Shown here: positions 5,818-17,970 of the stretch, piece after piece
Layout of the letters: the number at the start of each line of letters is the position of its first letter
Position numbering within the stretch: the first letter of the stretch is position 1
Notes under the pieces: generated by a model
Database searches by the model: none
What the model was told of the DNA's origin: nothing
What the model saw: only the letters and a program-made list of their open reading frames with translations
Translations under genes and position numbers: made by a program
Assembly: GCA_035762745.1 (NCBI GenBank)
Contig: DASTNM010000133.1
Coordinates: 1-20,900, forward strand
Direction of reading: 5' to 3'
DNA: 20,900 bases
Origin: Candidatus Polarisedimenticolia bacterium
GTDB taxonomy: Bacteria > Acidobacteriota > Polarisedimenticolia > Gp22-AA2

Positions 5818-6810
5818 CTACTCCCGCCGCGCGCGCCTGATCGCCATCAGGGTCAGGTCGTCCCCCTTCGGCGACCCGGCCCGGAAAGCGGCCAGGTCGT
5901 CCAGGCAGGCGTGGAGCAGCGCCTTCGGAGCCAGTGCGTGCCGCTCCGCGGCCAGACGCGCCAGGCGCTCGGCGCCGTACTCGGCCTGGGCGCGGTTGCG
6001 CGCCTCGCTCAGGCCGTCGGTGTAGAGCAGGAGCGCGTCGTCCGGCTCGAGGTGGTGCGTCGCGACCGGGTACCCGCCGCTGCAGAAGAGGCCGAGCGGC
6101 AGCCCGGTTGCCTCGATGGCCAAGACGCGTCCGCGGCGCACCAGGAGCGGCGGCGGGTGGCCGGCATTGCAGATCTCCACCCGCCCCGAGCGGTCGGCAC
6201 GCCCGCACACCAGGGTGGCGAAGTGCGCCGACGGGAGGCTCTCGCAGAAGAGACGGTTGGCGCGCTCCATCAGGCCGCTGACCGGCAGACCCGTGCCGAC
6301 CAGGGTGCGCACGATGGCGCGCAGGCCGGTCATGAGCATCGAGGCGGCCACCCCCTTGCCCGAGACGTCTCCGATCAGGAAGAAGAGATCCCCGCCGTCG
6401 CCGTCCGAGGCGACCAGGTCGCAGTAGTCCCCGCTCACTTGCGACGCCGGCTCGTAGTGGTAGGCGGCCTCCCAGCCGCCGAGACGCAGATCCTGCTTCG
6501 GCAGGAGACCGTTCTGGACCCGGGCCGCGAGGTCGAGGTCGCGCTCGAGGGCCCGGCGCTCCGCCGTGTTGAGGTGGTCGAGGCAGGTGCGGATCAGCGG
6601 GTCGACCATCAGGCGGTCCTCCTCGATCGCATCGTGGCAGCTCTCGCACTTCCCATACGAGCCGCCGTCGATCCTCACCAGGGCCGCGTCGACCTCCTCC
6701 AGCAGTTGCCTGAGGTGCGCGGCCTCCGGGGCGCTCTCGAGGGCGGTCTCGATGCGCGCCCGGCGGTCGCGCAGCTCCGCCTGGAAATCGGGTTGTCCTG
6801 AGATCGCCAT
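5818..6810 (-). CDS. PP2C/SpoIIE-family serine phosphatase (RsbU/RsbP-like) carrying an N-terminal DksA/TraR-type C4 (here C3H) zinc finger.
   Basis: The C-terminal ~240 aa show SpoIIE/PP2C hallmarks: 'SGDYCDL', 'FFLIGDVSGKGVAASMLMTGL', 'YTDGLSEARN' and 'GDDLTLMAIRR'. N-terminal residues ~45-85 ('ALVRIDGGSYGKCESCHDAIEEDRLMVDPLIRTCLDH') align residue for residue with the DksA/TraR zinc-finger consensus (YGxCExCGxxIxxxRLxAxPxAxxCxxC) as I recall it. The best start is ATG 6810 ('MAISGQ…') with GAGGAGGA at 6815-6822; the track's ATG 6834 is 8 codons further upstream. Stop TAG (revcomp 5818-5820). Confidence 0.8.
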   Translation of the reverse strand: MAISGQPDFQAELRDRRARIETALESAPEAAHLRQLLEEVDAALVRIDGGSYGKCESCHDAIEEDRLMVDPLIRTCLDHLNTAERRALERDLDLAARVQNGLLPKQDLRLGGWEAAYHYEPASQVSGDYCDLVASDGDGGDLFFLIGDVSGKGVAASMLMTGLRAIVRTLVGTGLPVSGLMERANRLFCESLPSAHFATLVCGRADRSGRVEICNAGHPPPLLVRRGRVLAIEATGLPLGLFCSGGYPVATHHLEPDDALLLYTDGLSEARNRAQAEYGAERLARLAAERHALAPKALLHACLDDLAAFRAGSPKGDDLTLMAIRRARRE

Positions 6811-6988
6811 CGGGTCCTCCTCGCTTCGGCGCATCCTACTCGTGGACTTCGAAGTATAAGCCTCTTGCCTCCTCTGCCGTTATACGTCCCCGGAGACCCG
6901 GGCGGGTGGCGGTCGCCGGCGGCCACGGCGTGCGGTCATCACGAATGAGGGAATCACCCGGTCTCGGGGCCCGAGATCCCGGGGGCGG

Positions 6989-7130: not shown

Positions 7131-7472
7131 ATGAGGATCAAGGTGCGCGACACGGGCAGGGTCCAGATCCTCGACCTGGATGGCGAGCTCAAGCTGGGCG
7201 TGGGCGACACCGCCCTGCGCGACACCGTCAAGGGGCTCATCAACACCGGACACAACAACCTCGTCCTCAATCTCAGGCATGTCCGCTGGATCGACTCCAG
7301 CGGCATGGGCGAGATGGTGGCCTGCCGGAAGCGGGTCGCCGAGAGGGGCGGCGAGCTCAAGCTCCTGATGCCCTCGGAGAAGATCTACAGCCTCCTGGTC
7401 CTGGTGCGATTCCACGAGTACTTCCAGATCCACCACGACGAGTCCCAGGCGGTCGTCTCCTTCATCGTCTGA
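7131..7472 (+). CDS. STAS-domain protein (anti-sigma-factor antagonist, SpoIIAA/RsbV-like), 113 aa.
   Basis: 'MRIKVRDTGRVQILDLDGEL…' shows the STAS fold pattern, with the conserved phosphorylatable 'DSSG' motif ('RWIDSSGMGEMV'). ATG 7131 is preceded by GGGGGAGG at 7116-7123. The track's upstream extension to 7017 lacks an RBS and is likely spurious. Stop TGA 7470-7472. Confidence 0.8.
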   Translation: MRIKVRDTGRVQILDLDGELKLGVGDTALRDTVKGLINTGHNNLVLNLRHVRWIDSSGMGEMVACRKRVAERGGELKLLMPSEKIYSLLVLVRFHEYFQIHHDESQAVVSFIV

Positions 7473-7601: not shown

Positions 7602-8123
7602 ATGGCGAGCCTGCTCTCGAAAATCTGGCGCACGGGAATCGTGACCGAGCCTCTGGCGGGCGGCTCGGACGAAGCGTGCGTCCTGGCGCGCGCCATCGCG
7701 GAGAAGACGCGCCGGTTGATCGGGCGGGCCCTCGCCATCCGCGAGGTGGACGCCGGGTCGTGCAACGGCTGCGAGATCGAGATCACCGGCCTCCCGACAC
7801 CTCTTTACGATTGCGAGCGCTTCGGCATCCATTTCGTCGCCTCGCCGCGCCACGCCGACATGCTGCTGGTCACGGGACCGGTGACCCGCAACATGGAGGT
7901 GCCGCTGCGCAAGACCTGGGAGGCGACCCCCGACCCGAAGCTGGTGGTCGCGGTCGGTGACTGTGCCCGCACCTGCGGCGTCTTCCGGGGCGGTTACGCC
8001 ATCGCCGGCAGCGTCGACGCGGTGATCCCGGTCGACCTCTTCATCCCCGGCTGCCCCCCCGAGCCGGCCGACATCCTGCGCGGCATCCTCGAGGCGCTCG
8101 ATCGACTTCCTGGGAGAGACTGA
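7602..8123 (+). CDS. NuoB-like small subunit of a group-4-hydrogenase/complex-I-like membrane module (HycG/HyfI/EchC-like; 'EhrS'), retaining the [4Fe-4S] ligands.
   Basis: 'SCNGCEIE', 'ERFGIHFVASPRHADMLLVTGPVT', 'PDPKLVVAVGDCARTCG' and 'IPVDLFIPGCPP' are colinear with E. coli HycG as I recall it. The start is ATG 7602 ('MASLLSKIW…'); the track's 7485 start adds an unconserved 39-aa Ala/Arg-rich leader. Stop TGA 8121-8123. Confidence 0.85.
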   Translation: MASLLSKIWRTGIVTEPLAGGSDEACVLARAIAEKTRRLIGRALAIREVDAGSCNGCEIEITGLPTPLYDCERFGIHFVASPRHADMLLVTGPVTRNMEVPLRKTWEATPDPKLVVAVGDCARTCGVFRGGYAIAGSVDAVIPVDLFIPGCPPEPADILRGILEALDRLPGRD

Positions 8124-8138
8124 GCCGCCGGGCGCGCG

Positions 8139-10184
8139 ATGATCGGCCTCCTCCCGATGATCACCACGTATCTCGCCGGCAGCGCGGCGGCGATCGCCCT
8201 GCCGGGTGACCGGGGCCGCCGTGTCGCCCAGGCGCTGGCGGGGGCCGGCGCGCTCCTCGGCCTCGCGACCGCTCTCTCCGTGATCGGCTCCGGGAAGGCG
8301 GCGGTCTTCGACCTCCCCTCGTCCGTTCCGGCGCTCGGGCTCGCCTTCCGTCTCGACGCGCTCGGCGCTTTCTTTCTCGCCCTGATCGGTCTCGTGGCGG
8401 TGCCGGCGGCGATTTACGCCGACGCCTACACGAAGGAGGAGGCGCCGCCCTCCGGCACACCCGGGAAGGCGGCGCCGCGCTCCGGACGGCTGGCGGGGGC
8501 GACGCTGAACCTCTTCCTTCTGGCGATGAGTCTGGTGGTGAGCGCCGCCAACGTCCTGGCCTTCCTGTTCGCGTGGGAGGCGATGTCGCTGGCCTCCTAC
8601 CTCCTGGTCGTGGGTGACGGGGAGAAGGCCGAGAGCGTTTCCGCCGGTCGCTGGTACGCCGGCATGGCGCACGCCGGCTTCGGGCTGATCGCGGCGGCCT
8701 TCTTCCTGCTCGCCGCCCGCGCCGGCGGGGATGGTTTCGAGACGATCCGCTCGCTGTCGTCGTCTCCGGGGCCCGCCCTCCGCAACGTCGTCTTCCTCCT
8801 GGCGCTGCTGGGGTTCGGATCGAAGGCCGGGATCGTGCCGCTGCACGTCTGGCTGCCGCGGGCCCACCCGGCGGCGCCGAGCCACGTCTCCGCCCTGATG
8901 TCGGGGGCGATGCTCCCGATCGGCGTCTATGGCCTGCTCCGCGTCGGTCTCGACCTGCTCGGCGGCGGCCCGCCGTGGTGGGGCGGTGTCGTCCTGGCGC
9001 TCGGGGCGGTCTCGGCGCTCAAGGGGGTCCTCTACGCCCTGACCGAGCAGGACCTCAAGCGCCTCCTCGCGTACAGCAGCATCGAGAACCTCGGCATCGT
9101 CTTCATGGGGATCGGGATCGGCTTCGTGTTCCACGGCCACGGCCGGGCCGACCTGGCCGCCGTGGCGCTGGCCGCCGGCCTCTACCATGCCCTGAACCAC
9201 GCCGCCTTCAAGGGATTGCTCTTCCTCGGGTCCGGGGCCGTGCTCAAGGCGACCGGCACGCGCAACCTGGAGGAGATGGGTGGCCTCATCAAGAGGATGC
9301 CGCAGACCGCCGCCTGCTTCCTCGTCGGCGCCGCGGCGATCGCGGCTCTGCCGCCGCTCAACGGCTTTGCCAGCGAGTGGCTGCTCCTGCAGGTGTTCAT
9401 GGCGGGGGCCTCGCTTCCGGAAGGGCTCACGGCCGCCCTGATGGCGCTGGCGGTCGGCACGCTGGCGCTCGCCGGCGGTCTGGCGGCCGCCTGCTTCGTC
9501 AAGGCGTTCGGCATTCCGTTCCTGGCGCTGCCCCGCTCGCGAGCCGCCGAAGAGGCGCGCGAGGTGGCCGGCTCGATGCGCTTCGCCATGATCGCCCTCG
9601 CCGCCGCCTGCGCCCTGCTCGGCCTGGCGCCGTCGGTCGTGATGTCGTTCCTGGCACGCGTCCTGGGCGGGATGCCCGGGGTGGACGCCGGCGGGGCGCT
9701 CTTCCGCCCGGGGTCCGTCCTCGAGGCGCCGCAGGGATCGTCGCGCATCGCGCCGCCGCTCCTGGCTCTCTGCCTGATCGTCGTCATCGCGGCGCTCGTG
9801 GTGGGCCTCCGGCTTCTCGGCGTGCGGGGTAGAACGCGGCTGGTGGAGACCTGGGGCTGCGGGCGGACGGTGCAGACGTCGCGCATGGAGATCACCAGCA
9901 TGGCGTTCGCCGAGCCGCTGCGGCGCGTCTTCGCCGGTCTCTACCGGCCGACCAAGGACCTGACGATCGGCTTCCACCCCGAGTCGAAGTATTTCGTCCG
10001 CTCGATCACCTACAGGAGCCGCATCCGCTCCTGGTTCGAGGAGGACCTGTACCGCTCGTTCTACGATCTCCTCCGGCCGCTGGCCGCCTCCGGCCGGCTG
10101 ATCCAGTCGGGCTCGGTGCACCTCTACCTGGCCTACATCGTCGCGGCGCTTCTGATCTTCCTGCTTCTCGGGCGGTGGCTCTGA
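8139..10184 (+). CDS. HyfB/HycC-like (NuoL/MrpA-type) antiporter-like membrane subunit, 681 aa ('EhrA').
   Basis: Polytopic protein with the proton-pumping-subunit signature 'WLPRAHPAAPSHVSALMSGAML' (cf. WLPDAH.EAP.PVSALIHAATMV). Its length matches HyfB (~670 aa). Confidence 0.85.
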   Translation: MIGLLPMITTYLAGSAAAIALPGDRGRRVAQALAGAGALLGLATALSVIGSGKAAVFDLPSSVPALGLAFRLDALGAFFLALIGLVAVPAAIYADAYTKEEAPPSGTPGKAAPRSGRLAGATLNLFLLAMSLVVSAANVLAFLFAWEAMSLASYLLVVGDGEKAESVSAGRWYAGMAHAGFGLIAAAFFLLAARAGGDGFETIRSLSSSPGPALRNVVFLLALLGFGSKAGIVPLHVWLPRAHPAAPSHVSALMSGAMLPIGVYGLLRVGLDLLGGGPPWWGGVVLALGAVSALKGVLYALTEQDLKRLLAYSSIENLGIVFMGIGIGFVFHGHGRADLAAVALAAGLYHALNHAAFKGLLFLGSGAVLKATGTRNLEEMGGLIKRMPQTAACFLVGAAAIAALPPLNGFASEWLLLQVFMAGASLPEGLTAALMALAVGTLALAGGLAAACFVKAFGIPFLALPRSRAAEEAREVAGSMRFAMIALAAACALLGLAPSVVMSFLARVLGGMPGVDAGGALFRPGSVLEAPQGSSRIAPPLLALCLIVVIAALVVGLRLLGVRGRTRLVETWGCGRTVQTSRMEITSMAFAEPLRRVFAGLYRPTKDLTIGFHPESKYFVRSITYRSRIRSWFEEDLYRSFYDLLRPLAASGRLIQSGSVHLYLAYIVAALLIFLLLGRWL

Positions 10185-11125
10185 TGGTCTCGTTCCTGGT
10201 GGAGCCGTTGCAGGTCGCGCTGACGCTCCTTCTGGCCCCGGGTCTCGTGGGGCTCGTGCGCCTGCTCAAGGCACGGCTGCAAGGCCGGCGCGGTGCCCCC
10301 GTCCGGCAGCCCTACCGTGAGCTGGTCAAGCTCTTCGGCAAAGAGCGGGTTGTCTCCAGGAACGCTTCCTGGATCTTCCACGCGACGCCATTCGTGGTGC
10401 TCGGCACCACCCTCGTCGTGGCCCTCCTGGTGCCGCTCCTGGCGGCCCCCCTGCCGCTCGACGGAGTCGGCGACCTCGTGGTGGTGGCCTACCTGCTGCT
10501 CCTCGGGACGTTCTTCCTGGCGCTGGCGGGGCTCGACCCCGGCTCGGCGTTCGGCGGCATGGGAGCGAGCCGTGAGATGACGATCGCGGCGCTGGCGGAG
10601 CCGACCCTGGCCCTGGCGATCTTCGCGCTGGCGGTCGGGGCCGGCTCGACCAACCTCGGTCGGATCGTGGCCCGCACCCTCTCCGACCCGGTCGAGACGC
10701 TCGGCCCGGGCCACGTGATGGCCTTCGCCGCCCTGGCGATCGTCATGATCGCGGAGTGCGGGCGGCTGCCGGTCGACAACCCGGCCACGCATCTCGAGCT
10801 GACGATGATTCACGAGGCGATGCTGCTCGAGTATTCCGGCCCCCACCTGGCGCTCCTGGAGTGGGCGGGGCACATGAAGTTCTTTCTCTTCCTGGCGCTG
10901 ATCTCGAACCTGGCGTTCCCGTGGGGCGTCGCCGTCCGGCCGGGTCCCGTCGCCCTGGCGATCGCCGTCCTGGCCCTGGCGGTGAAGGTCGTCCTGCTGG
11001 CGGTGGGGCTCGCGTTCCTGGAGACCCAGGTCGCCAAGCTGCGGCTGTTCCGGGTGCCGGAGCTTCTGGCGGTGTCGTTCCTCCTGGCGCTCCTGGCGGT
11101 GACCACCTCCTTCCTGGTGAGGTAG
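10184..11125 (+). CDS. HyfC/HycD-like (NuoH-type) membrane subunit ('EhrB').
   Basis: 'RQPYRELVKLFGKE' and 'GASREMTIAALAEP' are NuoH/HycD signatures. There are about 8 TM segments and the protein is ~314 aa. ATG 10184 overlaps the upstream stop (TGATG); GTG 10175 is an alternative start. Confidence 0.85.
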   Translation: MVSFLVEPLQVALTLLLAPGLVGLVRLLKARLQGRRGAPVRQPYRELVKLFGKERVVSRNASWIFHATPFVVLGTTLVVALLVPLLAAPLPLDGVGDLVVVAYLLLLGTFFLALAGLDPGSAFGGMGASREMTIAALAEPTLALAIFALAVGAGSTNLGRIVARTLSDPVETLGPGHVMAFAALAIVMIAECGRLPVDNPATHLELTMIHEAMLLEYSGPHLALLEWAGHMKFFLFLALISNLAFPWGVAVRPGPVALAIAVLALAVKVVLLAVGLAFLETQVAKLRLFRVPELLAVSFLLALLAVTTSFLVR

Positions 11126-11128
11126 CGC

Positions 11129-11788
11129 ATGAGCGCCGATCTCTACACACGCCTCGCCACCCTGGCCTCGAGCCTGGTGCTCCTGAGCGGGATCGCCATC
11201 CTCTGGCGGCACAGCCTGCAGGCTTACATCGCCTCGTTCGCGCGCCAGTCGCTCCTCTTCGTCATGGCGATCCTGATCGTCGCCGTGGGCGAGAAGGATC
11301 CGAGGCTTTACGGGATGGCGCTGATGGTCTTCGCGCTCAAGGTAGTCTTCATCCCGAGGGTCCTGCGCCGGGTGCAGCGGCACGTCGGCGCCGAGATGGA
11401 GATCCATCCCTACGTCAACACGCCGGTCAGCCTGGCGCTCGCCGGCGTCCTGACGCTCCTTGCCTACGCCGTCGCCCAGCCGGTGGTCGCCCTGAGCGAG
11501 GCTCCGACACGCGGCGGGATCCCGCTGGCGCTCGCCGTCGTCTTCGTCGGGCTGCTCATCCTGGTCAGCCGCCGCAGCGCCTTGACTCAGATCGTCGGCT
11601 TCCTGGTGCTGGAGAACGGCATCGCGCTCCTGGCGGTCCTGGTCACCTCCGGCGTCCCGCTCATCGTCGAGCTGGGGGTCTTCCTCGACGTGCTCCTGGG
11701 ATTTCTGGTGATGCAGGTCTTCGTCTCGCGCATCCGCGAGACCTTCGACACGATCGACGTCGACCGGCTGCGGGGGCTGAGGCATTGA
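11129..11788 (+). CDS. HyfE-like small membrane subunit (hydrogenase-4 component E family; 'EhrC').
   Basis: It is 219 aa versus 216 aa for E. coli HyfE. 'SRRSALTQIVGFLVLENGIALLAVLV' matches HyfE 'SQRNILRQIFGYCLMENGSHLVLALL', and the C-terminal 'TIDVDRLRGL' matches 'TLDVNNLTALKG' (HyfE recalled from memory). The start lies 3 nt after the upstream stop. Confidence 0.8.
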   Translation: MSADLYTRLATLASSLVLLSGIAILWRHSLQAYIASFARQSLLFVMAILIVAVGEKDPRLYGMALMVFALKVVFIPRVLRRVQRHVGAEMEIHPYVNTPVSLALAGVLTLLAYAVAQPVVALSEAPTRGGIPLALAVVFVGLLILVSRRSALTQIVGFLVLENGIALLAVLVTSGVPLIVELGVFLDVLLGFLVMQVFVSRIRETFDTIDVDRLRGLRH

Positions 11789-11792
11789 GACG

Positions 11793-13262
11793 ATGATTCT
11801 TCCGATCCTGCTGGTCCTGCCGCTTCTGGCCGCCGCTATGGCATTGCTTCGGAAGCCCGACCACCCGCTCGTGGCGCGGGCCGGCGCCGCCCTGTCGGGA
11901 GTGACGTTCGCGCTGGCGCTGGTCCTGGCACGACGGTGCCTGACGCGCGGGGCCGTGGCCTTCGGACCCGGGGCGTTCCTGCGGGCCGACAGCCTGTCGG
12001 CGATCCTGACGCTGATCGTGTCGGGGGTGGCCTGTGTGTCGATCGGGTCCGGCGTCAACGCCCTGCGCCACGGCACGGGGGAGAACGGGCCGATCGACGA
12101 CGCGCTGCGGCGCCGTTATCATGTCCTCACCCACCTCTTCGTCTTCACCATGCTCCTGGCGGTCCTGGCGAACAACGTCGGCGTCATGTGGGTCGCCGTC
12201 GAGGCGACGACGATCACGACCGCGTTCCTGGTCGGTGTGCGACGGTCGAAGGCGGCGCTCGAGGCGTCCTGGAAGTACATCCTGATCGGCTCGGTCGGCA
12301 TCGCCCTGGCCTTTCTCGGCACCGTGCTCGGCTACTTCAATTTCGTGCAGCGGGTGGGGCAGACCCCCTACGCCCTGCACTGGACGGTTCTGAAAGGGGT
12401 CGCCGCCGGCCTGGACGGCGATGTGCTGCGGCTCGCCTTCGTCTTCATCCTGATCGGCTACGGCACCAAGGCGGGGCTGGCGCCGATGCACACCTGGCTT
12501 CCCGACGCCCACTCGGAGGCGCCGGCGCCGATCTCGGCGATGATGTCCGGGTCGCTCCTGGCCGTCGCCCTGTACGCCATCCTGCGCTGGAAGACGGTGG
12601 TCGACGCCTGCGTGGGGCACGCCTTCACCGACAGGATGCTCCTTCTGATCGGGACGCTCACCGTCACGGTGGCGGCCACGCTCCTGATCCGGCAGGCGAG
12701 CTACAAAAGGATGCTGGCCTACTCCAGCGTCGAGCAGATGGGGCTCGTCTGCGTCGGCCTGGCGTTCGGGCCGGCCGGGACCCTGGCGGCGCTCATGTTG
12801 ATGATCGGGCACGCGGCCGGCAAATCGATGGCCTTCCTGCTCTCGGGGAACCTGCTGGCCGCCTACGGCTCGACCCGCATCGCCTCGGTTCGCGGGGTGC
12901 TGCGCGTCATGCCGTGGAGCGGCGGTCTCTTCATGATCGCCATCCTGGCGCTCATGGGCCTGCCGCCGTTCGGGATCTTCCTGTCGGAGATGCTTCTCGT
13001 GCGCGCCGGGTTCCTGTCCGGACACCCGTGGGCCACCGGCCTGGTCCTGGCGATGGTCGTGGTGATCTTCGTGTCGCTCCTGGCACATCTGCAGCGGCTC
13101 CCGTACGGGGAGCCGCCCCACGAGGTGCCGCGCGGCGAGCCCGACCGGTCTTCGCTTCCGCCCCTGGCCCTGAACCTGGTGGTCCTCCTGGCCCTCGGGC
13201 TGGTGGTGCCCGCTCCGCTGCTCCGGCTCCTGGGACGGGCGGTGGAGGTCGTCAGCCGATGA
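11793..13262 (+). CDS. HyfF/HyfD-like (NuoM/NuoN-type) antiporter-like membrane subunit, 489 aa ('EhrD').
   Basis: 'HTWLPDAHSEAPAPISAMMSGSLL' is the canonical NuoM/N/L motif. The protein has multiple TM helices, and its start lies 4 nt after the hyfE-like stop. Confidence 0.85.
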   Translation: MILPILLVLPLLAAAMALLRKPDHPLVARAGAALSGVTFALALVLARRCLTRGAVAFGPGAFLRADSLSAILTLIVSGVACVSIGSGVNALRHGTGENGPIDDALRRRYHVLTHLFVFTMLLAVLANNVGVMWVAVEATTITTAFLVGVRRSKAALEASWKYILIGSVGIALAFLGTVLGYFNFVQRVGQTPYALHWTVLKGVAAGLDGDVLRLAFVFILIGYGTKAGLAPMHTWLPDAHSEAPAPISAMMSGSLLAVALYAILRWKTVVDACVGHAFTDRMLLLIGTLTVTVAATLLIRQASYKRMLAYSSVEQMGLVCVGLAFGPAGTLAALMLMIGHAAGKSMAFLLSGNLLAAYGSTRIASVRGVLRVMPWSGGLFMIAILALMGLPPFGIFLSEMLLVRAGFLSGHPWATGLVLAMVVVIFVSLLAHLQRLPYGEPPHEVPRGEPDRSSLPPLALNLVVLLALGLVVPAPLLRLLGRAVEVVSR

Positions 13263-14839
13263 CTCTGCGGGAGACCCTGGCGGACCTGGGCGCGACGTCG
13301 TTCACGGAGCGGGGGCGCACCGTGCTCTGTCGTCTGCCGCGTGCCTCGGTGCGCGGCGCCGCGCGCGCGCTTCTCGGGAACTTCCCGCTCGAGCTGTCCC
13401 TGATGCTGGCCGCCGATCGGCGCTCCGACCGGGGCGCCTTCGAGGTGATCTACCTCTACGCCGATCGGCGCGACAACCGGTTTCTCGAGATCACCGTCGA
13501 GGTGCCGCCCGCGGACCCGGTCGTCCCCTCGATCGCCACCATCTGCTACCTCGCCTCGCGTCACGAGAGGGAGATCCACGACCAGTTCGGGATCACGCCC
13601 CGGGAGCATCCCGACCTGCGGCCCCTGGTGCGGCACGGCTTCTGGCCCGAGGATTACCACCCGTTGCGCAAAGACGCGATCCCGCCCGTCGACCTGCGTG
13701 ACGACGACCGCCCATTCCCGTTTCAACGGGTGGAAGGAGAGGGGATCTACGAGATCCCGGTCGGCCCCGTGCACGCCGGGATCATCGAGCCGGGTCACTT
13801 CCGCTTCAGCGTCGACGGCGAGACGATCATCGACATGAAGGCGCGCCTCTACTACACCCACAAGGGGACCGAGAAGCTGTTCGAGGGGCGCGGTCCCGAC
13901 GAGGCGATCGAGCTGGCCGAGCGGATCTCAGGCGATACGTCGATCGGCCACGCGCTGGCATTCTGCCAGGCGATCGAGGCGCTGGCCGGCGTCGAGGCGC
14001 CGCCGCGGGCGCGGCACATCCGTGTCGTTCTCCTGGAGATGGAGCGGCTCTACAACCACGTCGCCGACTTCGGCTCCATCGCCAACGACACCGGCTTCGC
14101 CGTCGCCCACGCGCACGCCTTCCGGATCCGCGAGGCGCTCTTGCGCCTGAACAAGCGGCTGACCGGCCACCGGCTGCTGCGCGGTCTTCTGGTCCCCGGG
14201 GGGGTGGTGCGCGATCTGCCGGCCGATCTCGCGGGCGATCCCGGAGACGACCTCTCGCTGCCCCGGGAGCTCGGCCGGGTGGGGGCCGATTTCGAGGCGG
14301 TCGTGGCGATCGCGCTCGACAACAGCATGCTGCGCGACCGGCTGCGGGGCGCCGGGATCCTGACCACGCGCACGGCGCTGGACCACGGTGTTCTCGGCTA
14401 TGTCGCCCGCGCCTCCGGTATCGACCGCGACGTCCGCCGGGACCACCCGTTCGCCGCCTACGACCGGCTCGCCTTCAAGGTCGCGGTCCTCGACTCGGGC
14501 GACGTCGAGGCGCGCACCCTCGTCCGCGTGGAGGAGGTGCGCCAGTCGATCGGTCTCATCCGCCAGGCGCTCGAGACGAGGCCGGCCGGCGATTTGCGCC
14601 TGCCGCTGCCGCCGCTGCCGCGCCGGGAGAGCGCCTTCGCCCTGGTGGAGGGGTGGCGCGGCGCGATCCTGCACTGGGTGCTGTCCGACGACAGGGGACG
14701 GCTCGACCGCGTCAAGGTGCAGGACCCGTCCTTCGTCAACTGGCGGCCACTCACCTTCGCCCTGCTCAAGAACATCGTCCCGGACTTTCCGCTGTGCAAC
14801 AAGAGCTTCAATCTCTCCTACTCGGGGAACGATCTGTGA
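13259..14839 (+). CDS. Fused NuoC–NuoD-like 'large subunit' (HycE/HyfG-like; 'EhrL'), 526 aa, lacking the [NiFe]-ligating cysteines.
   Basis: This is the C-terminal part of track ORF 11936..14839; its upstream part is an alternate-frame artefact over hyfF. ATG 13259 overlaps the hyfF-like stop (ATGA). The NuoC-like N-terminus has 'EREIHDQFGITPREHPDLRPLVRHGFWPEDYHPLRKD'. The NuoD/large-subunit core has 'IPVGPVHAGIIEPGHFRF'. At the L1 motif position the sequence is 'ERISGDTSIGH' (nt 13919-13951) instead of ER.CG.C…H. The C-terminus is '…DFPLCNKSFNLSYSGNDL' instead of DPCxSCxxR. Confidence 0.85.
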   Translation: MTLRETLADLGATSFTERGRTVLCRLPRASVRGAARALLGNFPLELSLMLAADRRSDRGAFEVIYLYADRRDNRFLEITVEVPPADPVVPSIATICYLASRHEREIHDQFGITPREHPDLRPLVRHGFWPEDYHPLRKDAIPPVDLRDDDRPFPFQRVEGEGIYEIPVGPVHAGIIEPGHFRFSVDGETIIDMKARLYYTHKGTEKLFEGRGPDEAIELAERISGDTSIGHALAFCQAIEALAGVEAPPRARHIRVVLLEMERLYNHVADFGSIANDTGFAVAHAHAFRIREALLRLNKRLTGHRLLRGLLVPGGVVRDLPADLAGDPGDDLSLPRELGRVGADFEAVVAIALDNSMLRDRLRGAGILTTRTALDHGVLGYVARASGIDRDVRRDHPFAAYDRLAFKVAVLDSGDVEARTLVRVEEVRQSIGLIRQALETRPAGDLRLPLPPLPRRESAFALVEGWRGAILHWVLSDDRGRLDRVKVQDPSFVNWRPLTFALLKNIVPDFPLCNKSFNLSYSGNDL

Positions 14840-14869
14840 GCCGCCGGGGAGGATGCTAGAATCCCCGCC

Positions 14870-17800
14870 GTGACCTCATCCAGAAAAGCCCTGGCACTGG
14901 GCGCGCTGTGCGCCCTGACCTACCTGGCCGTCTCCGTGCGCCGCCTGGGAGCGCCCGACACTCTGTTCGTCCTCGACGCCCCGCTGTTCCGCATCGCGCC
15001 GCGCGTCGTCGCGCCGGGCTGGCATCTGGTTCCGCGCCTCATCGGCCGCCTGTCGCGCTACCCGGCGTCGTCCAGGACGCTGCGCGTCGATCTCTCGGGT
15101 GAGCGGGCGGCGGCGAGCCGCGAGGGGGCGCGGGTCGAGGTGGAGGTCGATCTGTCCTACGCCGTCCAGGCCGAGCGGGTCCTCGACCTGCACGCCGCCC
15201 TCGGTCCGAGCTACGAGATCCGCCTCGCCGGCCTGGTGCGCCGGGAGGCGGCGGAGAGGATCCGCGAGGTCTCCTATGACGTCGTGCGTAACCGCGATCC
15301 GGAGCTGGCGCGCGTGGTGCAGAGCGGCCTCGAGCATCGACTCGCCGGGGGGGGGCTCGAGCTGACGCGGCTGCGCATCGTGCAGGTCGCCGCCGCGGGC
15401 GAGACCTCGGGGACGATCCTGCGCGCCGGCAGCCCGCCGGTCGATCGCCAGGTCGTGCTGATCGGTGTCGACTCCTTCGACTGGAGGATCATCGACCCGC
15501 TGCTCAAGGCGGGGCGGATGCCGAACCTGGCGCGTCTGGTGGCGCGCGGGGCCCGCGCCCACCTGCGCACCATCCGTCCGATCCTGTCACCGGTCATCTG
15601 GACCAGCATCGCCACCGGCGTCAAGCCTTCGCGGCACGGCATCGTCGACTTCGTGGTGGCGGCGCCCGACAGCGGCGCCCTCCTGCCGGTCACCAGCGCC
15701 ATGCGGCAGGTCCCGGCGCTCTGGACCCTCCTGAGCCGGCAGGGGGTCGGCGTCGACGTGGTCGCCTGGTGGGCCACCTGGCCGGCCGAGACCGTGCGCG
15801 GCCGGATCGTCACCGACCGGGTCGCCTTCCAGCTCTTCGCGGAGTCGGTCAAGGACGACTGGAAGAGCGCCGATCGGGAGAAGAGCCGCGGCAAGACCTA
15901 TCCGCCCGACCTGTTCGAGACGATCCGGCCGCTCATCAAGGTGCCCGCGGAGGTGACCGACCAGGAGGTGGCGGAGTTCCTGCCGGGCGGGCGCTTCCCG
16001 CGCGCGCCGGGCGTTGCGGAGCGGGATCAGCTGAACGACTTCCGCACCGTCCTGGCCGCCGGGCAGACCTATCACGCCATCGCCCGGCGGCTTCTCGCGC
16101 CCGAGGGGACGGACGACGCGGCCGGGGGGACGGGAGGCCCGCGGCTGCGGATGATCTACTACGAGGGACCCGACACCACGTCGCATCTCTTCATGCGCTA
16201 CCGCCCGCCGCTGCTGCCCGGCGTGCGGCGTGACCAGATGGCGCTGTTCGGAGGGATCGTCGATCGCTACTACGAAAGGCAGGATCGCTACATCGGGGAA
16301 ATCGTCGCGGCGGCCGGCGCCGGCGCCACGGTGATCGTCGTCTCCGACCACGGCTTCAAGTCGGACAGCAACCGGCCGCCGCACAGCGACCCGCGCATCG
16401 ACAAAGGGAACGCCGCCGACTGGCACACGCCGATCGGTGTGCTCGTGATGGCCGGCCCCGACATCCGTTCCGGGTTCGACGTCGAGGCGGCCTCGGTCCT
16501 CGACATCGCGCCGACGATTCTGGCGCTCTACGGCTTGCCGGTGGCGCGCGACATGGACGGCCAGCCGCTCGCCCAGGCGCTCGATCCCGCCTTCCTGGCG
16601 CGGCGGCCGATCACCTGGGTCGACACCTACGGCGGCTTCCGGCCGCCCGCGCAGGAGGTCGCCTCGGCCGCCTCCCCCGGGGACGCCGAGATCGTCGAGA
16701 AGCTCCGAAACCTGGGCTATATCGGCGAGGAGAGGATGACGGCGCACAACAACCGCGGCGTGATCGCCATGGACGAGGGGGATCTCGACGGCGCCATCGC
16801 CAGCTTCGAGCGCGCCCTCAAGACCGACGGCAGCGCCAATCCGATGGTGCGCACCAACCTGGCCGATGCCTGGCTCCGGAAAGGAGATCTCGACAAGGCG
16901 CGCCGGTACGCCGAAGAGGCGCTTCTGGCGGAGCCGCGCGACAAGCAGGCCGAGCTGACCCTCGCGGGGGTGGCGCTGAAACAGGGGGACCTGGGCGGCG
17001 CCGAGCGGCACCTTGGAGCCGCCATCGCCATCGATCCCACCTTCGTGCCGGCCCACTCGCAGCTCGGCAGGCTCCAGGCGCAGCGGGGGAACGACGACGC
17101 GGCGCTGGCCGAGTACCGTCGCGTCGTCGAGATCGCCCCCTTGAGCCCGATCGAGTACAACAACATCGGCAACATCTACAGAAAGCGCGGCCAGATCGAC
17201 AAGGCGATGCGGGCCTACCAGGAGGCGCTGCGCTGCGATGCGCAGTACATCGGCGCCTGCAACAACCTCGGCCTCTGCCTCCAGGAGAAGGGGCGCCTCG
17301 ACGAGGCGCGCGCGCTCTACGAGCGGGCCCTCGAGATCCGCCCCGAGAACCCGATCCTGCGCAACAGCCTGGGGACGCTTCTGTCGCTGAAGGGGGACAA
17401 GAAAGGCGCGCTCGAGCAGTTCGAGCGCGCCGTGCGGGCCGATCCCGACTGGCCGGTGGCGCAGGGGAACATGGCGACGCTCCTGTACGAGCAGGGGCGG
17501 CTCCCCGAGGCGCGCGCCGCCTTCGAGCGCTGGGTGAAGCTCGAGCCGGAGTCGGTCGAGGGACGCCTCGAATACGCCCTGGCGCTTCTGATGACGCAGC
17601 AGTGGGACGAGGCCATCCGGCAGTTCGGCGAGGTCCTCAAGCGCAATCCGAGCGAGCTTCGGGCCAACATCGCCCTCGGTGAGACGCTCTTGCGCAAGGG
17701 AGATCTGGAAGGGGCCCAGGCCCACCTCGAGAAGGCCGCGGGGATCAGCGGCAAGCTGCCGCGCGTCTACAACAGCCTGGCCGAGGTGTACGAGAAGCGC

Positions 17801-17911
17801 GGACTGACGGAGCAGGCCCAGCAGGCCTACCGGAGGTCACTGGCCATCGAGCCCCGGCAGGAGGAGGTCCGCCGGCGCCTCGCCGCCCTCGTCCTGCGCC
17901 TCCGTCCCTGA
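14870..17911 (+). CDS. 1013-aa multidomain protein: N-terminal TM/signal anchor, then an SPFH/band-7-like domain, then an alkaline-phosphatase-superfamily (type I phosphodiesterase/nucleotide-pyrophosphatase-like) domain, then about nine C-terminal TPR repeats.
   Basis: Residues ~1-23 are hydrophobic ('ALALGALCALTYLAVSV'). Residues ~25-190 show SPFH patterning ('VAPGWHLVPRLIGRLSRYPASSRTLRVDL…VEVEVDLSYAV…GLELTRLRIVQV'). Residues ~200-600 have 'VVLIGVDSFDW', 'SPVIWTSIATGVKPSRHGI', 'VVSDHGF' and 'DIAPTILALYGLP', typical of the PF01663/AlkP core. Residues ~620-1000 are repeated 34-aa TPR units (e.g. 'NNIGNIYRKRGQIDKAMRAYQEALRCDAQ'). The GTG start at 14870 lies 30 nt after the large-subunit stop and has only a distant GGAGG (14849-14853). 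Confidence 0.8.
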   Translation: MTSSRKALALGALCALTYLAVSVRRLGAPDTLFVLDAPLFRIAPRVVAPGWHLVPRLIGRLSRYPASSRTLRVDLSGERAAASREGARVEVEVDLSYAVQAERVLDLHAALGPSYEIRLAGLVRREAAERIREVSYDVVRNRDPELARVVQSGLEHRLAGGGLELTRLRIVQVAAAGETSGTILRAGSPPVDRQVVLIGVDSFDWRIIDPLLKAGRMPNLARLVARGARAHLRTIRPILSPVIWTSIATGVKPSRHGIVDFVVAAPDSGALLPVTSAMRQVPALWTLLSRQGVGVDVVAWWATWPAETVRGRIVTDRVAFQLFAESVKDDWKSADREKSRGKTYPPDLFETIRPLIKVPAEVTDQEVAEFLPGGRFPRAPGVAERDQLNDFRTVLAAGQTYHAIARRLLAPEGTDDAAGGTGGPRLRMIYYEGPDTTSHLFMRYRPPLLPGVRRDQMALFGGIVDRYYERQDRYIGEIVAAAGAGATVIVVSDHGFKSDSNRPPHSDPRIDKGNAADWHTPIGVLVMAGPDIRSGFDVEAASVLDIAPTILALYGLPVARDMDGQPLAQALDPAFLARRPITWVDTYGGFRPPAQEVASAASPGDAEIVEKLRNLGYIGEERMTAHNNRGVIAMDEGDLDGAIASFERALKTDGSANPMVRTNLADAWLRKGDLDKARRYAEEALLAEPRDKQAELTLAGVALKQGDLGGAERHLGAAIAIDPTFVPAHSQLGRLQAQRGNDDAALAEYRRVVEIAPLSPIEYNNIGNIYRKRGQIDKAMRAYQEALRCDAQYIGACNNLGLCLQEKGRLDEARALYERALEIRPENPILRNSLGTLLSLKGDKKGALEQFERAVRADPDWPVAQGNMATLLYEQGRLPEARAAFERWVKLEPESVEGRLEYALALLMTQQWDEAIRQFGEVLKRNPSELRANIALGETLLRKGDLEGAQAHLEKAAGISGKLPRVYNSLAEVYEKRGLTEQAQQAYRRSLAIEPRQEEVRRRLAALVLRLRP

Positions 17912-17929: not shown

Positions 17930-17970
17930 GCAAAAAAAAGAGGCGGCCCCGCGCCAGGGCCGCCTCTCGT
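17930..17970. terminator. Bidirectional intrinsic terminator between the convergent TPR gene (+) and porin gene (-): A8, stem GAGGCGGCC (17940-17948), 9-nt loop, stem GGCCGCCTC (17958-17966).
   Basis: A perfect 9-bp GC stem is flanked by aaaaaaaa (17932-17939), which reads as a U8 tract immediately after the hairpin for the minus-strand gene, and by tcgtcgtctctc on the plus side. Confidence 0.6.

What the first reader, a model, noticed from the sequence alone, without database searches (positions are those of the whole stretch)
7602..14870. The module has no NuoI/HycF-type 2[4Fe-4S] subunit, no electron-input partner and no maturation genes within the window
- Every characterised group-4 hydrogenase and complex I inserts a NuoI-like two-cluster ferredoxin subunit between the NuoB-like subunit and the soluble electron donor/acceptor module.
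- I found no CxxCxxCxxxCP-type ORF in any frame in or beside the operon.
- The gene after the large subunit is the SPFH–phosphodiesterase–TPR protein, and the gene before it is a STAS protein.
- I also found no formate dehydrogenase, CO dehydrogenase, NuoEFG-like, ferredoxin or Hyp/HycI genes in the window.
- The small-subunit cluster would therefore have to be reduced or oxidised directly by a soluble partner encoded elsewhere, or the complex may function without redox input (for example as a cation translocator or sensor).
- Either way this is an unusual minimal six-subunit version.
Basis: seen in the sequence. Interest (0 to 1): 0.55.

Follow-up and report, generated by a model that had tools for sequence, protein, structure and literature searches.

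The report
Ferredoxin-less six-subunit hydrogenase-like membrane complex
This is an ordinary member of a very widespread, already described family of six-subunit complex-I/hydrogenase relatives (Ehr/Hyq type) that lack both the nickel-iron site and the two-cluster ferredoxin subunit, and whose function is still unknown.

Summary
Window 7602-14839 encodes six tightly packed genes: NuoB-like small subunit, HyfB/NuoL-like, HycD/NuoH-like, HyfE-like, HyfF/NuoN-like, and a fused NuoC-NuoD large subunit. No ferredoxin-type ORF exists in any frame. No redox partner or Hyp/HycI gene lies anywhere on this 20.9-kb contig.

It is not unusual, though. All four Ni-Fe cysteines are replaced, which is the Ehr type, so no maturation genes are needed. 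In 84 non-redundant loci analysed (83 related loci plus the window), all 45 with the same small-subunit-first order lack the ferredoxin subunit. Flanking genes vary. The only recurrent neighbour is an ArsR-type regulator.

A six-subunit, NuoI-less, Cys-less version was published as Hyq in Azorhizobium (2009, 2012). The M. tuberculosis Rv0081-87 hyc-family operon has been called EHR-like.

One addition: the small subunit begins with about 17 residues homologous to the N-terminal amphipathic helix of HycF. Relatives carry HycF-HycG fusions, so the ferredoxin core was probably deleted from such a fusion.

The four [4Fe-4S] cysteines are kept here but lost in six relatives, including three candidate-phyla (CPR) genomes.

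Most likely mechanism (inferred): an ion-translocating module whose single cluster exchanges electrons directly with a diffusible partner. A redox-independent role is not excluded.

The parts
7602..8123 (+). Small subunit (NuoB/HycG-like, 173 aa). The four [4Fe-4S] cysteine ligands are present: C54, C57, C121, C151 (nt 7761-7763, 7770-7772, 7962-7964, 8052-8054). A fifth conserved Cys is C125.
   Evidence: Pfam Oxidored_q6 at 2.8e-31. NCBIfam NuoB subfamily scores above its cut-off. Closest solved chains are HycG 7Z0S_G and MbhJ 6CFW_J, with CNGC, GxC and PGCPP aligned. Cys conservation was counted over 74 loci. The NCBI gene call has the same 173-aa length (P0121).
7602..7652 (+). Relic of HycF/NuoI: residues 1-17 (MASLLSKIWRTGIVTEP), homologous to the extreme N-terminal amphipathic helix of HycF-like ferredoxin subunits. 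The 2x[4Fe-4S] core that should follow it is absent.
   Evidence: A 24-position HMM built only from N-termini of Fer4-bearing HycF-like proteins hits this ORF alone in the six-frame window (E = 1.3e-4; next best 0.38). The same HMM hits NuoI-less small subunits elsewhere, down to 5e-8. The MAFFT alignment shows Fer4-NuoB fusions minus roughly 85-105 residues. Hydrophobic moment is 0.64, reached by 0.8% of shuffles. AF2 gives a helix at residues 2-11 but with low confidence. The role of the HycF N-terminus is described in PMC9474812.
8139..10184 (+). HyfB/NuoL-like antiporter-type subunit (681 aa) with a C-terminal extension that aligns to the C-terminal part of HycC.
   Evidence: Pfam Proton_antipo_M. 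NCBIfam 'hydrogenase 4 subunit B' equivalog scores 669.9 against a cut-off of 667. Best solved match is HycC 7Z0S_C at 4e-67. TM5 Glu, TM7 Lys (Leu208 in HycC), TM11 Lys and TM12 Glu are present. The HycC C-terminus is ND3-like according to PMC9474812.
10175..11125 (+). HycD/NuoH-like subunit (316 aa) linking the peripheral and membrane arms.
   Evidence: Pfam NADHdh at 7.4e-40. Best solved match is HycD 7Z0S_D at 1e-45, against E. coli NuoH at 9e-6. The motif PxD...EL...EYSG is kept.
11129..11788 (+). HyfE-like small membrane subunit (219 aa).
   Evidence: Weak Pfam Oxidored_q2. NCBIfam 'hydrogenase 4 membrane subunit' at 1e-28, below its cut-off. It is conserved at this position in related loci.
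11793..13262 (+). HyfF/NuoN-like antiporter-type subunit (489 aa).
   Evidence: Pfam Proton_antipo_M. NCBIfam 'hydrogenase 4 subunit F' at 4e-131, below its cut-off. TM5 Glu, TM7 Lys, TM11 Lys and TM12 Glu are present in the alignments to MbsH and MbhH.
13259..14839 (+). Large subunit, a NuoC-NuoD/HycE-like fusion (526 aa) without a Ni-Fe site. R222-I-S-G-D-T-S-I-G-H231 (nt 13922-13951) replaces RxCGxCxxxH. N514-KSFNLSYSGNDL526 (nt 14798-14836) replaces ...DPCxxCxxR. The protein ends there, with no C-terminal extension.
   Evidence: Pfam Complex1_30kDa, Complex1_49kDa and NiFeSe_Hases N-terminal part. The alignment to HycE 7Z0S_E (6e-72) puts S, T, S, G at the four Cys positions. The alignment to Nqo4 puts Ile176 and Gly225 at the positions I recall as His38 and Tyr87. 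The motifs are invariant across relatives.
7131..7472 (+). STAS-domain protein (113 aa) directly upstream, possibly co-transcribed. Lineage-specific; relatives usually have an ArsR-type regulator at this position.
   Evidence: Pfam STAS at 7.6e-12. NCBIfam anti-sigma-factor antagonist superfamily. A promoter-like site lies at 6989-7018 and no terminator-like site separates it from the operon. It is absent from other loci. ArsR HTH occurs in 32 loci.
14870..17911 (+). SPFH(Band 7)-type I phosphodiesterase-TPR protein (1013 aa), 30 nt downstream of the large subunit. Conserved only in the closest relative.
   Evidence: Pfam Phosphodiest and many TPR families. The ortholog in L085 is 68% identical over 560 aa and scores Band_7, at the same position. 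It is absent after the operon in L001, L003 and L004. The only strong hairpin lies at 17938-17968.
5818..6834 (-). DksA/TraR zinc-finger + SpoIIE-type PP2C phosphatase, transcribed divergently from the STAS gene. Context only, not part of the complex.
   Evidence: Pfam SpoIIE at 5e-51 and zf-dskA_traR at 2.6e-7. NCBIfam. Not found beside other loci.

Best explanation
The module is a standard member of the NuoI-less, small-subunit-first clade of Ehr complexes (energy-converting-hydrogenase-related). These are relatives of Azorhizobium Hyq and the mycobacterial Rv0082-87 type.

Shown:
- It has six subunits homologous to HycG, HyfB, HycD, HyfE, HyfF and HycE.
- All four Ni-Fe cysteines are replaced.
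- The four cysteines of the single [4Fe-4S] cluster are kept.
- Both antiporter-like subunits keep their Glu/Lys transport residues.
- The ferredoxin subunit is absent throughout the clade.
- The small subunit starts with a peptide homologous to the HycF N-terminal helix.

Inferred origin: the ancestor had a fused HycF-HycG small subunit, as several relatives still do, including true [NiFe] enzymes. An internal deletion removed the two-cluster ferredoxin core and kept the membrane-surface helix, probably because that helix is structural.

Inferred mechanism: the complex is still an ion-translocating coupling machine. With the electron wire gone, its one cluster, now close to the surface HycF used to cover, exchanges single electrons directly with a diffusible carrier encoded elsewhere (ferredoxin, flavodoxin or similar). 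Events at the invariant polar pocket that replaced the Ni-Fe site (R-I-S-G-D-T...H and N-K-S-F-N-x-S-Y-S-G-N-D-L) drive or are driven by proton or cation movement through the HycD-like and antiporter-like subunits.

The second substrate is unknown.
For: Identity:
- Pfam and NCBIfam assignments.
- The closest solved structures are E. coli FHL chains HycE, HycG, HycD and HycC.

No Ni-Fe site:
- S, T, S, G sit at the four Cys positions, and the protein ends while HycE continues.
- The same motifs occur in 78 of 83 related large subunits. The 5 relatives that keep the Cys all have a ferredoxin.

Clade-wide absence of the ferredoxin:
- 45 of 45 small-subunit-first loci lack it, by regex and by a HycF-like HMM.
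- Gene calls with Pfam in L001, L003 and L004 show the same six genes and unrelated flanks.
- RefSeq annotation of Rhizobium and Rhodococcus plasmid loci shows six genes and no ferredoxin.

Relic and fusion:
-.
- The HycF N-terminal amphipathic helix is reported in all solved complex I superfamily structures (PMC9474812).

Cluster retained:
- The four Cys are kept in 38 of 45 small-subunit-first loci, plus L015, which has a shifted tandem-Cys variant, and in 28 of 28 small-subunit-last loci. This argues for continued selection long after HycF was lost.

Transport residues.

No recurring redox neighbour: only an ArsR-type regulator recurs, in 32 loci.

Literature:
- Six-subunit Hyq (PMC3357923, PMC2650096).
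- The M. tuberculosis Rv0081-87 hyc-family operon is called EHR-like (PMC6728331).
- Function was still called unknown in 2023-2025 (PMC10284858, PMC12342949).
Against: - No donor or acceptor has been identified here or in any related locus.
- The positions I recall as the complex I quinone ligands (Nqo4 His38 and Tyr87) are Ile176 and Gly225 here. The NuoH-like subunit is far closer to HycD than to NuoH. Quinone coupling therefore has no sequence support.
- Six related loci, three of them from candidate-phyla (CPR) genomes, have lost 3-4 of the cluster cysteines yet keep the whole operon and the polar pocket motifs. At least those versions work without any redox cofactor.
- The relic match in this particular clade is modest: E = 1.3e-4 against the window and about 1e-2 against all loci.
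- The AF2 model of the small subunit has low confidence, mean pLDDT 51.6.
- How exposed the cluster is without HycF is reasoned from known structures, not computed.
Confidence: 0.55

Rival explanations
1. Redox-independent machine. After losing the electron wire, the complex became a proton/cation translocator or antiporter used for pH or proton-motive-force homeostasis. The peripheral arm acts as a cap or ligand-binding gate. The [4Fe-4S] cluster is only structural, or serves as a redox/O2 sensor.
For: - Six related loci keep all six genes and the invariant pocket motifs but have replaced 3-4 cluster cysteines with Thr/Ser/Asp/Glu/Gly.
- No redox partner recurs next to any locus. The recurrent neighbour is a regulator.
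- The antiporter residues are intact.
- A six-gene 'group 4f' complex in Methylocystis is induced about 16-fold or more at pH 5 with no detectable H2. Its quoted motif 'AARVS' resembles the Cys-less type (bioRxiv 10.1101/2025.08.29.672306).
- Ehr expression is not increased by H2 in Nitrospira moscoviensis (PMC12342949).
Against: - The four cluster cysteines are kept in the window and in 66 of 73 loci analysed across many phyla (67 counting L015's shifted tandem-Cys variant). That would be costly if the cluster were merely structural.
- The small subunit is the most conserved protein of the set, at 76-87% identity among close homologs.
- No transport data exist for any member.
Confidence: 0.25
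2. Non-canonical 'endo-hydrogenase'. As proposed for Hyq, the Cys-less large subunit plus the N2-type cluster interconvert H2 and membrane quinone, so no ferredoxin subunit is needed.
For: - Deleting hyq changes H2 recycling and H2 evolution in Azorhizobium (PMC2650096, PMC3357923).
- A Rhizobium Hyq-type large subunit shares the same motifs (RTSGD..., DFPLCNKSFNCSYSGHDL) and about 43% identity with the window protein.
Against: - There are no Ni-Fe ligands and no hyp genes. The Hyq authors themselves call a Ni-Fe site 'uncertain, if not unlikely'.
- No H2 was detected from the induced Methylocystis complex.
- H2 does not induce Ehr in Nitrospira.
- M. tuberculosis lacks the maturation genes (PMC6728331).
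- The pocket cannot be both the H2 site and the quinone site, and the quinone-ligand positions are not conserved.
Confidence: 0.1
3. The ferredoxin subunit is simply encoded elsewhere, for example shared with complex I or on another contig, or it was lost through an assembly or binning artefact.
For: The window is a single 20.9-kb MAG contig, so the rest of the genome cannot be inspected.
Against: - The operon sits mid-contig, with about 7 kb and 6 kb of unrelated genes on either side.
- The same six-gene unit without a ferredoxin recurs in 45 of 45 loci, including contigs several megabases long and finished plasmids.
- The small subunit carries the HycF N-terminal helix itself. A separate HycF/NuoI would compete for the same site.
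Confidence: 0.05
4. A decaying, non-functional remnant of a group 4 hydrogenase operon.
For: The catalytic metal site and one subunit have been lost.
Against: - The five genes listed at the GC3 > 0.85 filter score 0.86-0.93, and the frame-wise scan over 10201-11100 and 13201-14839 gives 0.82-0.96 for the other two. There are no frame disruptions.
- Identity to relatives in other phyla is 63-87%.
- Pocket motifs and transport residues are invariant.
Confidence: 0.02

Closest known systems
Hyq 'endo-hydrogenase' of Azorhizobium caulinodans (hyqRBCEFGI) and rhizobial or Azospirillum orthologs
   Same: - Six structural subunits with the same homologies: HyfB, HyfC, HyfE, HyfF, a fused NuoCD large subunit, and a NuoB-like small subunit.
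- No NuoI/HyfH, and no Cys-X-X-Cys pairs in the large subunit.
- A Rhizobium ortholog shares the RxSGD and DFPLCNKSFNxSYSGxDL motifs. Its small subunit also begins with the HycF-like peptide.
   Different: - Gene order: the small subunit is last in hyq and first here.
- Identity is about 43% for the large subunit.
- Two of the three HyqG-conserved cysteines are present (C236, C513); the third position is Leu519.
- There is no HyqR-type activator here.
- The H2-related phenotype has been shown only for Azorhizobium.
Mycobacterial Rv0081-Rv0087 'hyc'/EHR locus
   Same: - Small-subunit-first order with no ferredoxin in the five mycobacterial loci examined (L041, L051, L059, L067, L071).
- Same large-subunit motifs.
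- The literature regards it as an EHR-like complex that is not a hydrogenase (PMC6728331).
   Different: - Identity is 46-48% for the large subunit.
- Mycobacterial loci have an ArsR-type regulator directly upstream; the window has a STAS gene there.
- The relic peptide is more diverged in actinobacteria and is detected by eye but not by the HMM.
- M. tuberculosis itself was not among the loci.
Ehr cluster of Geobacter sulfurreducens (GSU0739-45), which gave the family its name
   Same: A membrane complex with a NuoL-like subunit, a HyfE-like subunit, and large and small subunits. It is related to Ech hydrogenases but is not a hydrogenase, and its role is unknown (PMC7894505).
   Different: It has seven genes. 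Whether it has a ferredoxin subunit, and what its gene order is, were not examined here.
E. coli formate hydrogenlyase (Hyc, PDB 7Z0S) and Hyf (FHL-2)
   Same: Closest solved structure for four of the subunits. Same overall architecture of peripheral arm, HycD-like linker and antiporter-like subunit.
   Different: - FHL has a Ni-Fe site and the two-cluster HycF, plus HycB and FdhF as the electron-input chain and Hyp/HycI maturation. All are absent here.
- The window complex has two antiporter-like subunits plus HyfE, and it keeps the TM7 Lys that HycC lacks.
Group 4f-type [NiFe] hydrogenases and Ehr variants with a HycF-HycG fused small subunit (for example loci L033, L061, L053, L058)
   Same: Same large-subunit clade, sharing the IEPGHFRF and NIVPDFPL motifs. 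Same membrane subunits. The fused subunit shows the HycF N-terminal peptide and the linker seen in the window protein.
   Different: They retain the 2x[4Fe-4S] core. L033, L049, L060, L061 and L082 also retain the Ni-Fe cysteines. Their small subunit is last in the operon.
Respiratory complex I (NuoA-N)
   Same: Homologs or fused equivalents of NuoB, C, D, H, L and N, an ND3-like C-terminal region, and the NuoI N-terminal helix. Conserved antiporter residues.
   Different: No NuoE, F or G. No NuoI clusters. The positions I recall as the quinone ligands His38 and Tyr87 are not conserved. NuoH similarity is weak (9e-6).

Membership tests
Ehr (energy-converting hydrogenase-related) complex | Large subunit homologous to group 4 [NiFe]-hydrogenase large subunit / NuoD | tested here: met
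   Complex1_49kDa and NiFeSe_Hases hits. HycE 7Z0S_E at 6e-72.
Ehr (energy-converting hydrogenase-related) complex | Both CxxC motifs that bind Ni-Fe are absent | tested here: met
   S224, T227, S520 and G523 align to the four HycE cysteines. Same in relatives.
Ehr (energy-converting hydrogenase-related) complex | NuoB-like small subunit, NuoH-like subunit and Mrp/Nuo antiporter-like subunits in one gene cluster | tested here: met
   Pfam. Contiguous or overlapping genes.
Ehr (energy-converting hydrogenase-related) complex | No Ni-Fe maturation machinery required or present | tested here: inconclusive
   No hyp or hycI gene on the contig, and the large subunit ends where HycE continues. The rest of the genome is not available.
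Group 4 [NiFe]-hydrogenase (Hyc/Hyf/Ech/Mbh, including 4f) | Four cysteine ligands of the Ni-Fe centre | tested here: not met
Group 4 [NiFe]-hydrogenase (Hyc/Hyf/Ech/Mbh, including 4f) | HycF/HyfH/EchF/MbhN-type 2x[4Fe-4S] subunit | tested here: not met
   Regex and HycF-like HMM find none. Only the N-terminal peptide remains.
Hyq six-subunit 'core' complex | Exactly six structural subunits homologous to HyfB, C, E, F, G, I, with no HyfA, D or H | tested here: met
   compared with PMC2650096 and PMC3357923 and the Rhizobium locus L086.
Hyq six-subunit 'core' complex | Operon order hyqBCEFGI with the small subunit last and a HyqR activator first | tested here: not met
   The small subunit is first here and STAS lies upstream.
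Hyq six-subunit 'core' complex | Three conserved HyqG cysteines (Cys-258, Cys-491, Cys-497 in A. caulinodans numbering) | tested here: inconclusive
   By position relative to the C-terminus and to the Rhizobium ortholog, C236 and C513 are present and the third position is Leu519. The A. caulinodans sequence itself was not available.
Hyq six-subunit 'core' complex | hyq-dependent H2 uptake or evolution | not testable with these tools
   Physiology only.
Respiratory complex I | NADH-input module NuoE, F, G and NuoI clusters N6a/N6b | tested here: not met
Respiratory complex I | Quinone-ligating His38 and Tyr87 (Thermus Nqo4 numbering, recalled from memory) | tested here: not met
   The alignment to 2FUG_4 gives Ile176 and Gly225 at those positions.
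Mrp-type cation/proton antiporter | MrpA/D-like subunits together with MrpB, C, E, F, G | tested here: not met
   Only two MrpA/D-like subunits. No MrpE, F or G family hit among the window ORFs.

The most novel reading that the evidence does not exclude
Deleting the ferredoxin core from a HycF-HycG fusion may mark the point where a whole lineage of complex-I-like machines was cut off from electron-transfer chains.

On this reading, the invariant polar pocket that replaced the Ni-Fe site (R-I-S-G-D-T...H and N-K-S-F-N-x-S-Y-S-G-N-D-L), together with the intact membrane arm, works as a redox-independent or merely redox-gated proton/cation translocator for pH or proton-motive-force homeostasis. 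The [4Fe-4S] cluster would act as a sensor. The cluster-free versions found in some relatives, including CPR genomes, would be the end-point of this trend.

That would make this a complex I relative that transduces energy with no redox chemistry at all.
Probability: 0.2. Interest if true: 0.75.

Novelty: new member of a known kind. Interest (0 to 1): 0.35.

Why it matters
The reported finding (six subunits, no NuoI, no partner, no Hyp) re-describes the known architecture of Ehr/Hyq-type complexes. On its own it is not news.

The family does matter:
- It matched at least 600 stretches in a one-genome-per-species collection. The 80 loci kept include Mycobacterium species, nitrifiers, rhizobia, soil Acidobacteriota and Methylomirabilota, CPR bacteria and archaea; M. 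tuberculosis itself was not among them, and its hyc operon is called EHR-like in the literature (PMC6728331).
- It sits between hydrogenases and complex I in evolutionary terms.
- Papers from 2023 and 2025 still describe its function as unknown.

Two by-products of this check may help make the question testable.

First, the small subunit carries a relic of the HycF N-terminal helix. That gives a concrete evolutionary route: fusion first, then deletion of the ferredoxin core. It also predicts where a direct electron donor would have to dock.

Second, natural variants exist with and without the last Fe-S cluster. These amount to a ready-made comparison between redox-dependent and redox-independent function.

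I found neither point in the papers I could search. Marreiros et al. 2013 and Coppi 2005 could not be read, so priority is uncertain.

Tried and rejected
- The off-frame Cys-rich match at 12982-13020 (CRRCFSCAPGSCP) was rejected. It lies in a 42-codon frame inside the NuoN-like gene, has the wrong spacing and has no GC3 support.
- STAS and PP2C as conserved partners: not found beside any other locus.
- SPFH-phosphodiesterase-TPR as a partner: conserved only in the nearest relative L085. It is absent in L001, L003 and L004. A slipin/NfeD pair next to the Rhizobium locus may be coincidence.
- SulP-STAS transporters lie upstream in four loci, but only one is adjacent (219 nt). This is too weak to use.
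- The other recurrent flank clusters were generic paralog families: ABC ATPases, glycosyltransferases, histidine kinases and PEPCK.
- The AlphaFold2 model of the small subunit, built on 22 close homologs, gave mean pLDDT 51.6. I used it only for the helix 2-11 call and ran no fold search.
- Marreiros et al. 2013 and Coppi 2005 are not in the library. What they say about NuoI in Ehr clusters could not be checked.
- Quinone coupling by analogy with complex I is not supported by the ligand positions.

Full report
**What is in the window**

The window has about 70% G+C, so I chose reading frames by third-position GC and then annotated them. Six + strand genes follow one another with gaps of -10 to +15 nt:
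- 7602-8123: NuoB/HycG-like small subunit
- 8139-10184: HyfB/NuoL-like
- 10175-11125: HycD/NuoH-like
- 11129-11788: HyfE-like
- 11793-13262: HyfF/NuoN-like
- 13259-14839: fused NuoC-NuoD/HycE-like large subunit

These assignments rest. The closest solved structures for four of them are the E. coli formate hydrogenlyase chains HycG, HycC, HycD and HycE (PDB 7Z0S). No Ehr-type complex appears among the solved structures matched.

The protein database shows that the window is the entire 20.9-kb contig of a 'Candidatus Polarisedimenticolia' (Acidobacteriota) MAG.

**Checking the absences**

- A six-frame regular-expression scan finds no CxxCxxCxxxCP motif. The nearest match, at 12982-13020, is an off-frame 42-codon stretch with the wrong spacing.
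- A profile built from the HycF-like proteins of related loci finds no ferredoxin core anywhere in the six-frame translation. The best score is E = 0.11, and that hit is the N-terminus of the small subunit.
- Every other GC3-supported ORF was scanned: a Zn-ADH fragment, two outer-membrane proteins, PurM, PurN, RadC, TyrS, a DksA-zinc-finger/PP2C phosphatase, STAS, the phosphodiesterase-TPR protein, a GNAT, and one ORF with no family.

So there is no formate or CO dehydrogenase, NuoEFG, ferredoxin, Hyp or HycI on the contig.

**Why no maturation genes are needed**

In the alignment to HycE, the four Ni-Fe cysteines are Ser224, Thr227, Ser520 and Gly523. The protein ends three residues after the position of the fourth cysteine, whereas the HycE chain continues past its aligned end (residue 548 of 581). 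This is the defining trait of Ehr complexes as the literature describes them (PMC6349859; PMC10284858). The complex I residues I recall as the quinone ligands are not there either: Ile176 and Gly225 align with Thermus Nqo4 His38 and Tyr87.

**Is the missing ferredoxin subunit unusual?**

It is not.
- The large subunit has at least 7,954 relatives at 90% clustering.
- I analysed 83 non-redundant related loci plus the window.

| Gene order and large-subunit type | Ferredoxin gene | Loci |
|---|---|---|
| Small subunit first, Ehr type (includes the window) | none | 45 |
| Small subunit last, Ehr type | present | 12 |
| Small subunit last, Ehr type (mostly Nitrospirota) | none | 11 |
| Small subunit last, true Ni-Fe cysteines | present | 5 |
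| Truncated loci, order not determined | - | 11 |

The small-subunit-first group spans Acidobacteriota, Methylomirabilota, Chloroflexota, many Actinomycetota including five Mycobacterium-group loci, and CPR bacteria.

Gene calls with Pfam annotation for three long contigs show the same six genes and unrelated flanks. RefSeq annotation of a Rhodococcus plasmid shows the small-subunit-first form, and a Rhizobium plasmid shows the hyq order. Both have six genes and no ferredoxin.

**Literature**

The six-subunit form has already been described. Azorhizobium Hyq was presented as 'a core (6 subunit) version of (14 subunit)' complex I. Its homology table has no NuoI counterpart, and its HyqG lacks both Cys-X-X-Cys motifs (PMC3357923; PMC2650096). 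[quoted passage not shown] Nitrospira papers from 2023 and 2025 still call the function unknown.

I could not access Marreiros et al. 2013 or Coppi 2005.

**Recurring neighbours**

I clustered all ORF fragments within 4 kb of the operons. One specific recurrent neighbour emerged: a 110-160-aa ArsR-type HTH regulator, present in 32 loci. It usually lies directly upstream on the same strand, which matches the position of the regulator Rv0081 at the head of the M. tuberculosis Rv0081-87 operon. The other clusters were generic paralog families.

The window's STAS gene sits in the position the regulator usually occupies. STAS and the divergent PP2C gene occur beside no other locus. The SPFH-phosphodiesterase-TPR gene is shared only with the nearest relative, L085: 73% identity for the large subunit and 68% for the neighbour.

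A promoter-like site precedes STAS. No terminator-like site appears before the hairpin at 17938-17968. In this lineage, therefore, STAS, the six genes and the TPR protein may form one transcript. No soluble redox gene recurs anywhere.

**A relic of HycF**

The HycF-like proteins of related loci begin with M-F-x-I-I-x-K-x-L-K-T-G-V-x-T-E-x-x-P. In many of these loci the protein is fused to the small subunit, including in true [NiFe] enzymes.

The NuoI-less small subunits begin with the same motif. The window has MASLLSKIWRTGIVTEPL and Nitrospirota have MLRILRQIFRTGIVTEPL. Small subunits in loci with a separate ferredoxin gene lack the motif.

Statistical support:
- A 24-position profile built only from ferredoxin-bearing proteins picks out the small-subunit ORF as the sole significant hit in the six-frame window (E = 1.3e-4; next best 0.38).
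- The same profile scores NuoI-less Nitrospira small subunits at 5e-8.
- The alignment shows the NuoI-less proteins as fusion proteins minus roughly 85-105 residues.

The FHL structure paper describes the extreme N-terminus of HycF as a short amphipathic helix at the membrane surface. [quoted passage not shown] The window peptide is amphipathic, with a hydrophobic moment of 0.64 reached by 0.8% of shuffles. It is predicted to be helical, though at low model confidence.

The simplest reading is that a HycF-HycG fusion lost its ferredoxin core and kept a structurally needed helix. This refines the claim of 'no NuoI/HycF': the electron-carrying part is gone, but the anchor is not.

**What remains functional**

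- The four [4Fe-4S] cysteines (C54, C57, C121, C151) are present here, in 38 of 45 small-subunit-first loci, and in all 28 small-subunit-last loci. L015 has a shifted tandem-Cys variant.
- Both antiporter-like subunits keep TM5 Glu, TM7 Lys, TM11 Lys and TM12 Glu. That includes the Lys that E. coli HycC has replaced with Leu208.
- The HycD-like subunit keeps most of the acidic loop signature.
- The residues replacing the Ni-Fe ligands, and the C-terminal N-K-S-F-N-x-S-Y-S-G-N-D-L, are nearly invariant across phyla.

Six loci have replaced three or four of the cluster cysteines with Thr/Ser/Asp/Glu/Gly while keeping the operon and the pocket motifs. They are Saccharibacteria, Daviesbacteria, a Patescibacteria-group genome, a Bdellovibrionales MAG, a 'Thermoleophilia' MAG and an unclassified MAG. 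Those versions have no recognisable redox cofactor at all.

**Mechanism**

The identity, the clade-wide loss of the ferredoxin core and the relic are shown. The rest is inferred.

Because the cluster ligands have been kept across most of the family long after HycF was lost, I favour a still redox-active coupling module. Its single cluster would exchange electrons directly with a diffusible carrier at the surface HycF used to cover. Events at the polar pocket would be coupled to ion movement through the intact membrane arm.

The main rival is a redox-independent or redox-gated ion translocator. It draws support from:
- the cluster-free relatives;
- the lack of any recurrent redox neighbour;
- a 2026 preprint in which a six-gene 'group 4f' complex of Methylocystis is induced about 16-fold or more at pH 5 with no detectable H2. 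Its quoted motif 'AARVS' resembles the Cys-less type.

The Hyq-style 'endo-hydrogenase' idea is weak given the missing metal site. A ferredoxin encoded elsewhere is unlikely, because the small subunit itself carries the helix such a protein would need. Pseudogenisation is excluded by the level of conservation.

**Verdict**

The finding is accurate but describes the normal, published architecture of a known and widespread family. It is a new member of a known kind. Interest is modest. It rests on the unresolved function of Ehr complexes and on two side observations that may not have been reported before: the HycF relic with its fusion-then-deletion route, and the naturally cluster-free variants.

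Noticed in passing
window 5818-6834 (-) and 7131-7472 (+): A PP2C (SpoIIE-type) phosphatase with an N-terminal DksA/TraR zinc finger is transcribed divergently from a single-domain STAS protein that sits directly upstream of the Ehr operon. This looks like a partner-switching pair. It was not found beside any other Ehr locus examined.
   Followed up: partly
window 14870-17911; L085 5287-8286; L086 904-3104: The SPFH(Band 7)-phosphodiesterase-TPR protein follows the large subunit here and in the nearest relative (68% identity). A slipin + NfeD pair lies divergently upstream of the Rhizobium hyq-type operon. This may be a loose SPFH association or a coincidence.
   Followed up: partly
L031, L036, L039, L045, L057, L078 (small-subunit genes upstream of position 10001): The small subunits of six related operons, three of them from CPR genomes, have lost 3-4 of the four [4Fe-4S] cysteines (patterns TCDD, SEGD, DCGD, TEGD; PGDPP instead of PGCPP). 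All six genes and the large-subunit pocket motifs are kept.
   Followed up: partly
L053 1983-2852, L026 11495-12367, L058 11422-12225, L061 11415-12146, L033 11482-12231: In many relatives the HycF-like 2x[4Fe-4S] protein is fused in frame to the NuoB-like small subunit. This includes enzymes that keep the Ni-Fe cysteines.
   Followed up: yes
32 loci, e.g. L007 3883-4314, L041 3947-4426, L059 4020-4367: An ArsR-family HTH regulator is the only specific recurrent neighbour of these operons. It usually lies immediately upstream on the same strand, matching the position of the regulator Rv0081 in M. tuberculosis. The window lacks it.
   Followed up: yes
L048 and L064 (Nitrospirota); L006, L026, L034: Two complete or partial Ehr operons lie in tandem in two Nitrospirota genomes. 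Three other loci have two consecutive HyfB/NuoL-like genes.
   Followed up: no
L015 small subunit (about 4478-4939): The first cluster motif reads SPNCCE, with tandem cysteines as in the complex I N2 motif, instead of SCNGCE.
   Followed up: no
window 7974-7976 (Cys125 of the small subunit): A fifth cysteine lies four residues after the third cluster ligand (GDCARTCG). It is invariant in close homologs and present in 31 of 74 loci. Its role is unknown.
   Followed up: no
window 17938-17968: A strong 14-bp GC-rich hairpin with a T-run sits between the convergent TPR-protein gene and the outer-membrane-protein gene. It is probably a bidirectional terminator.
   Followed up: no
L032 9515-14169: A second, different group-4-like cluster (L, H, B, CD and its own 2x[4Fe-4S] gene) lies directly downstream of the Ehr-type operon in a Methanomassiliicoccus MAG.
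   Followed up: no
window 20091-20783 (-): A 230-aa ORF with good GC3 has no Pfam or NCBIfam match.
   Followed up: no
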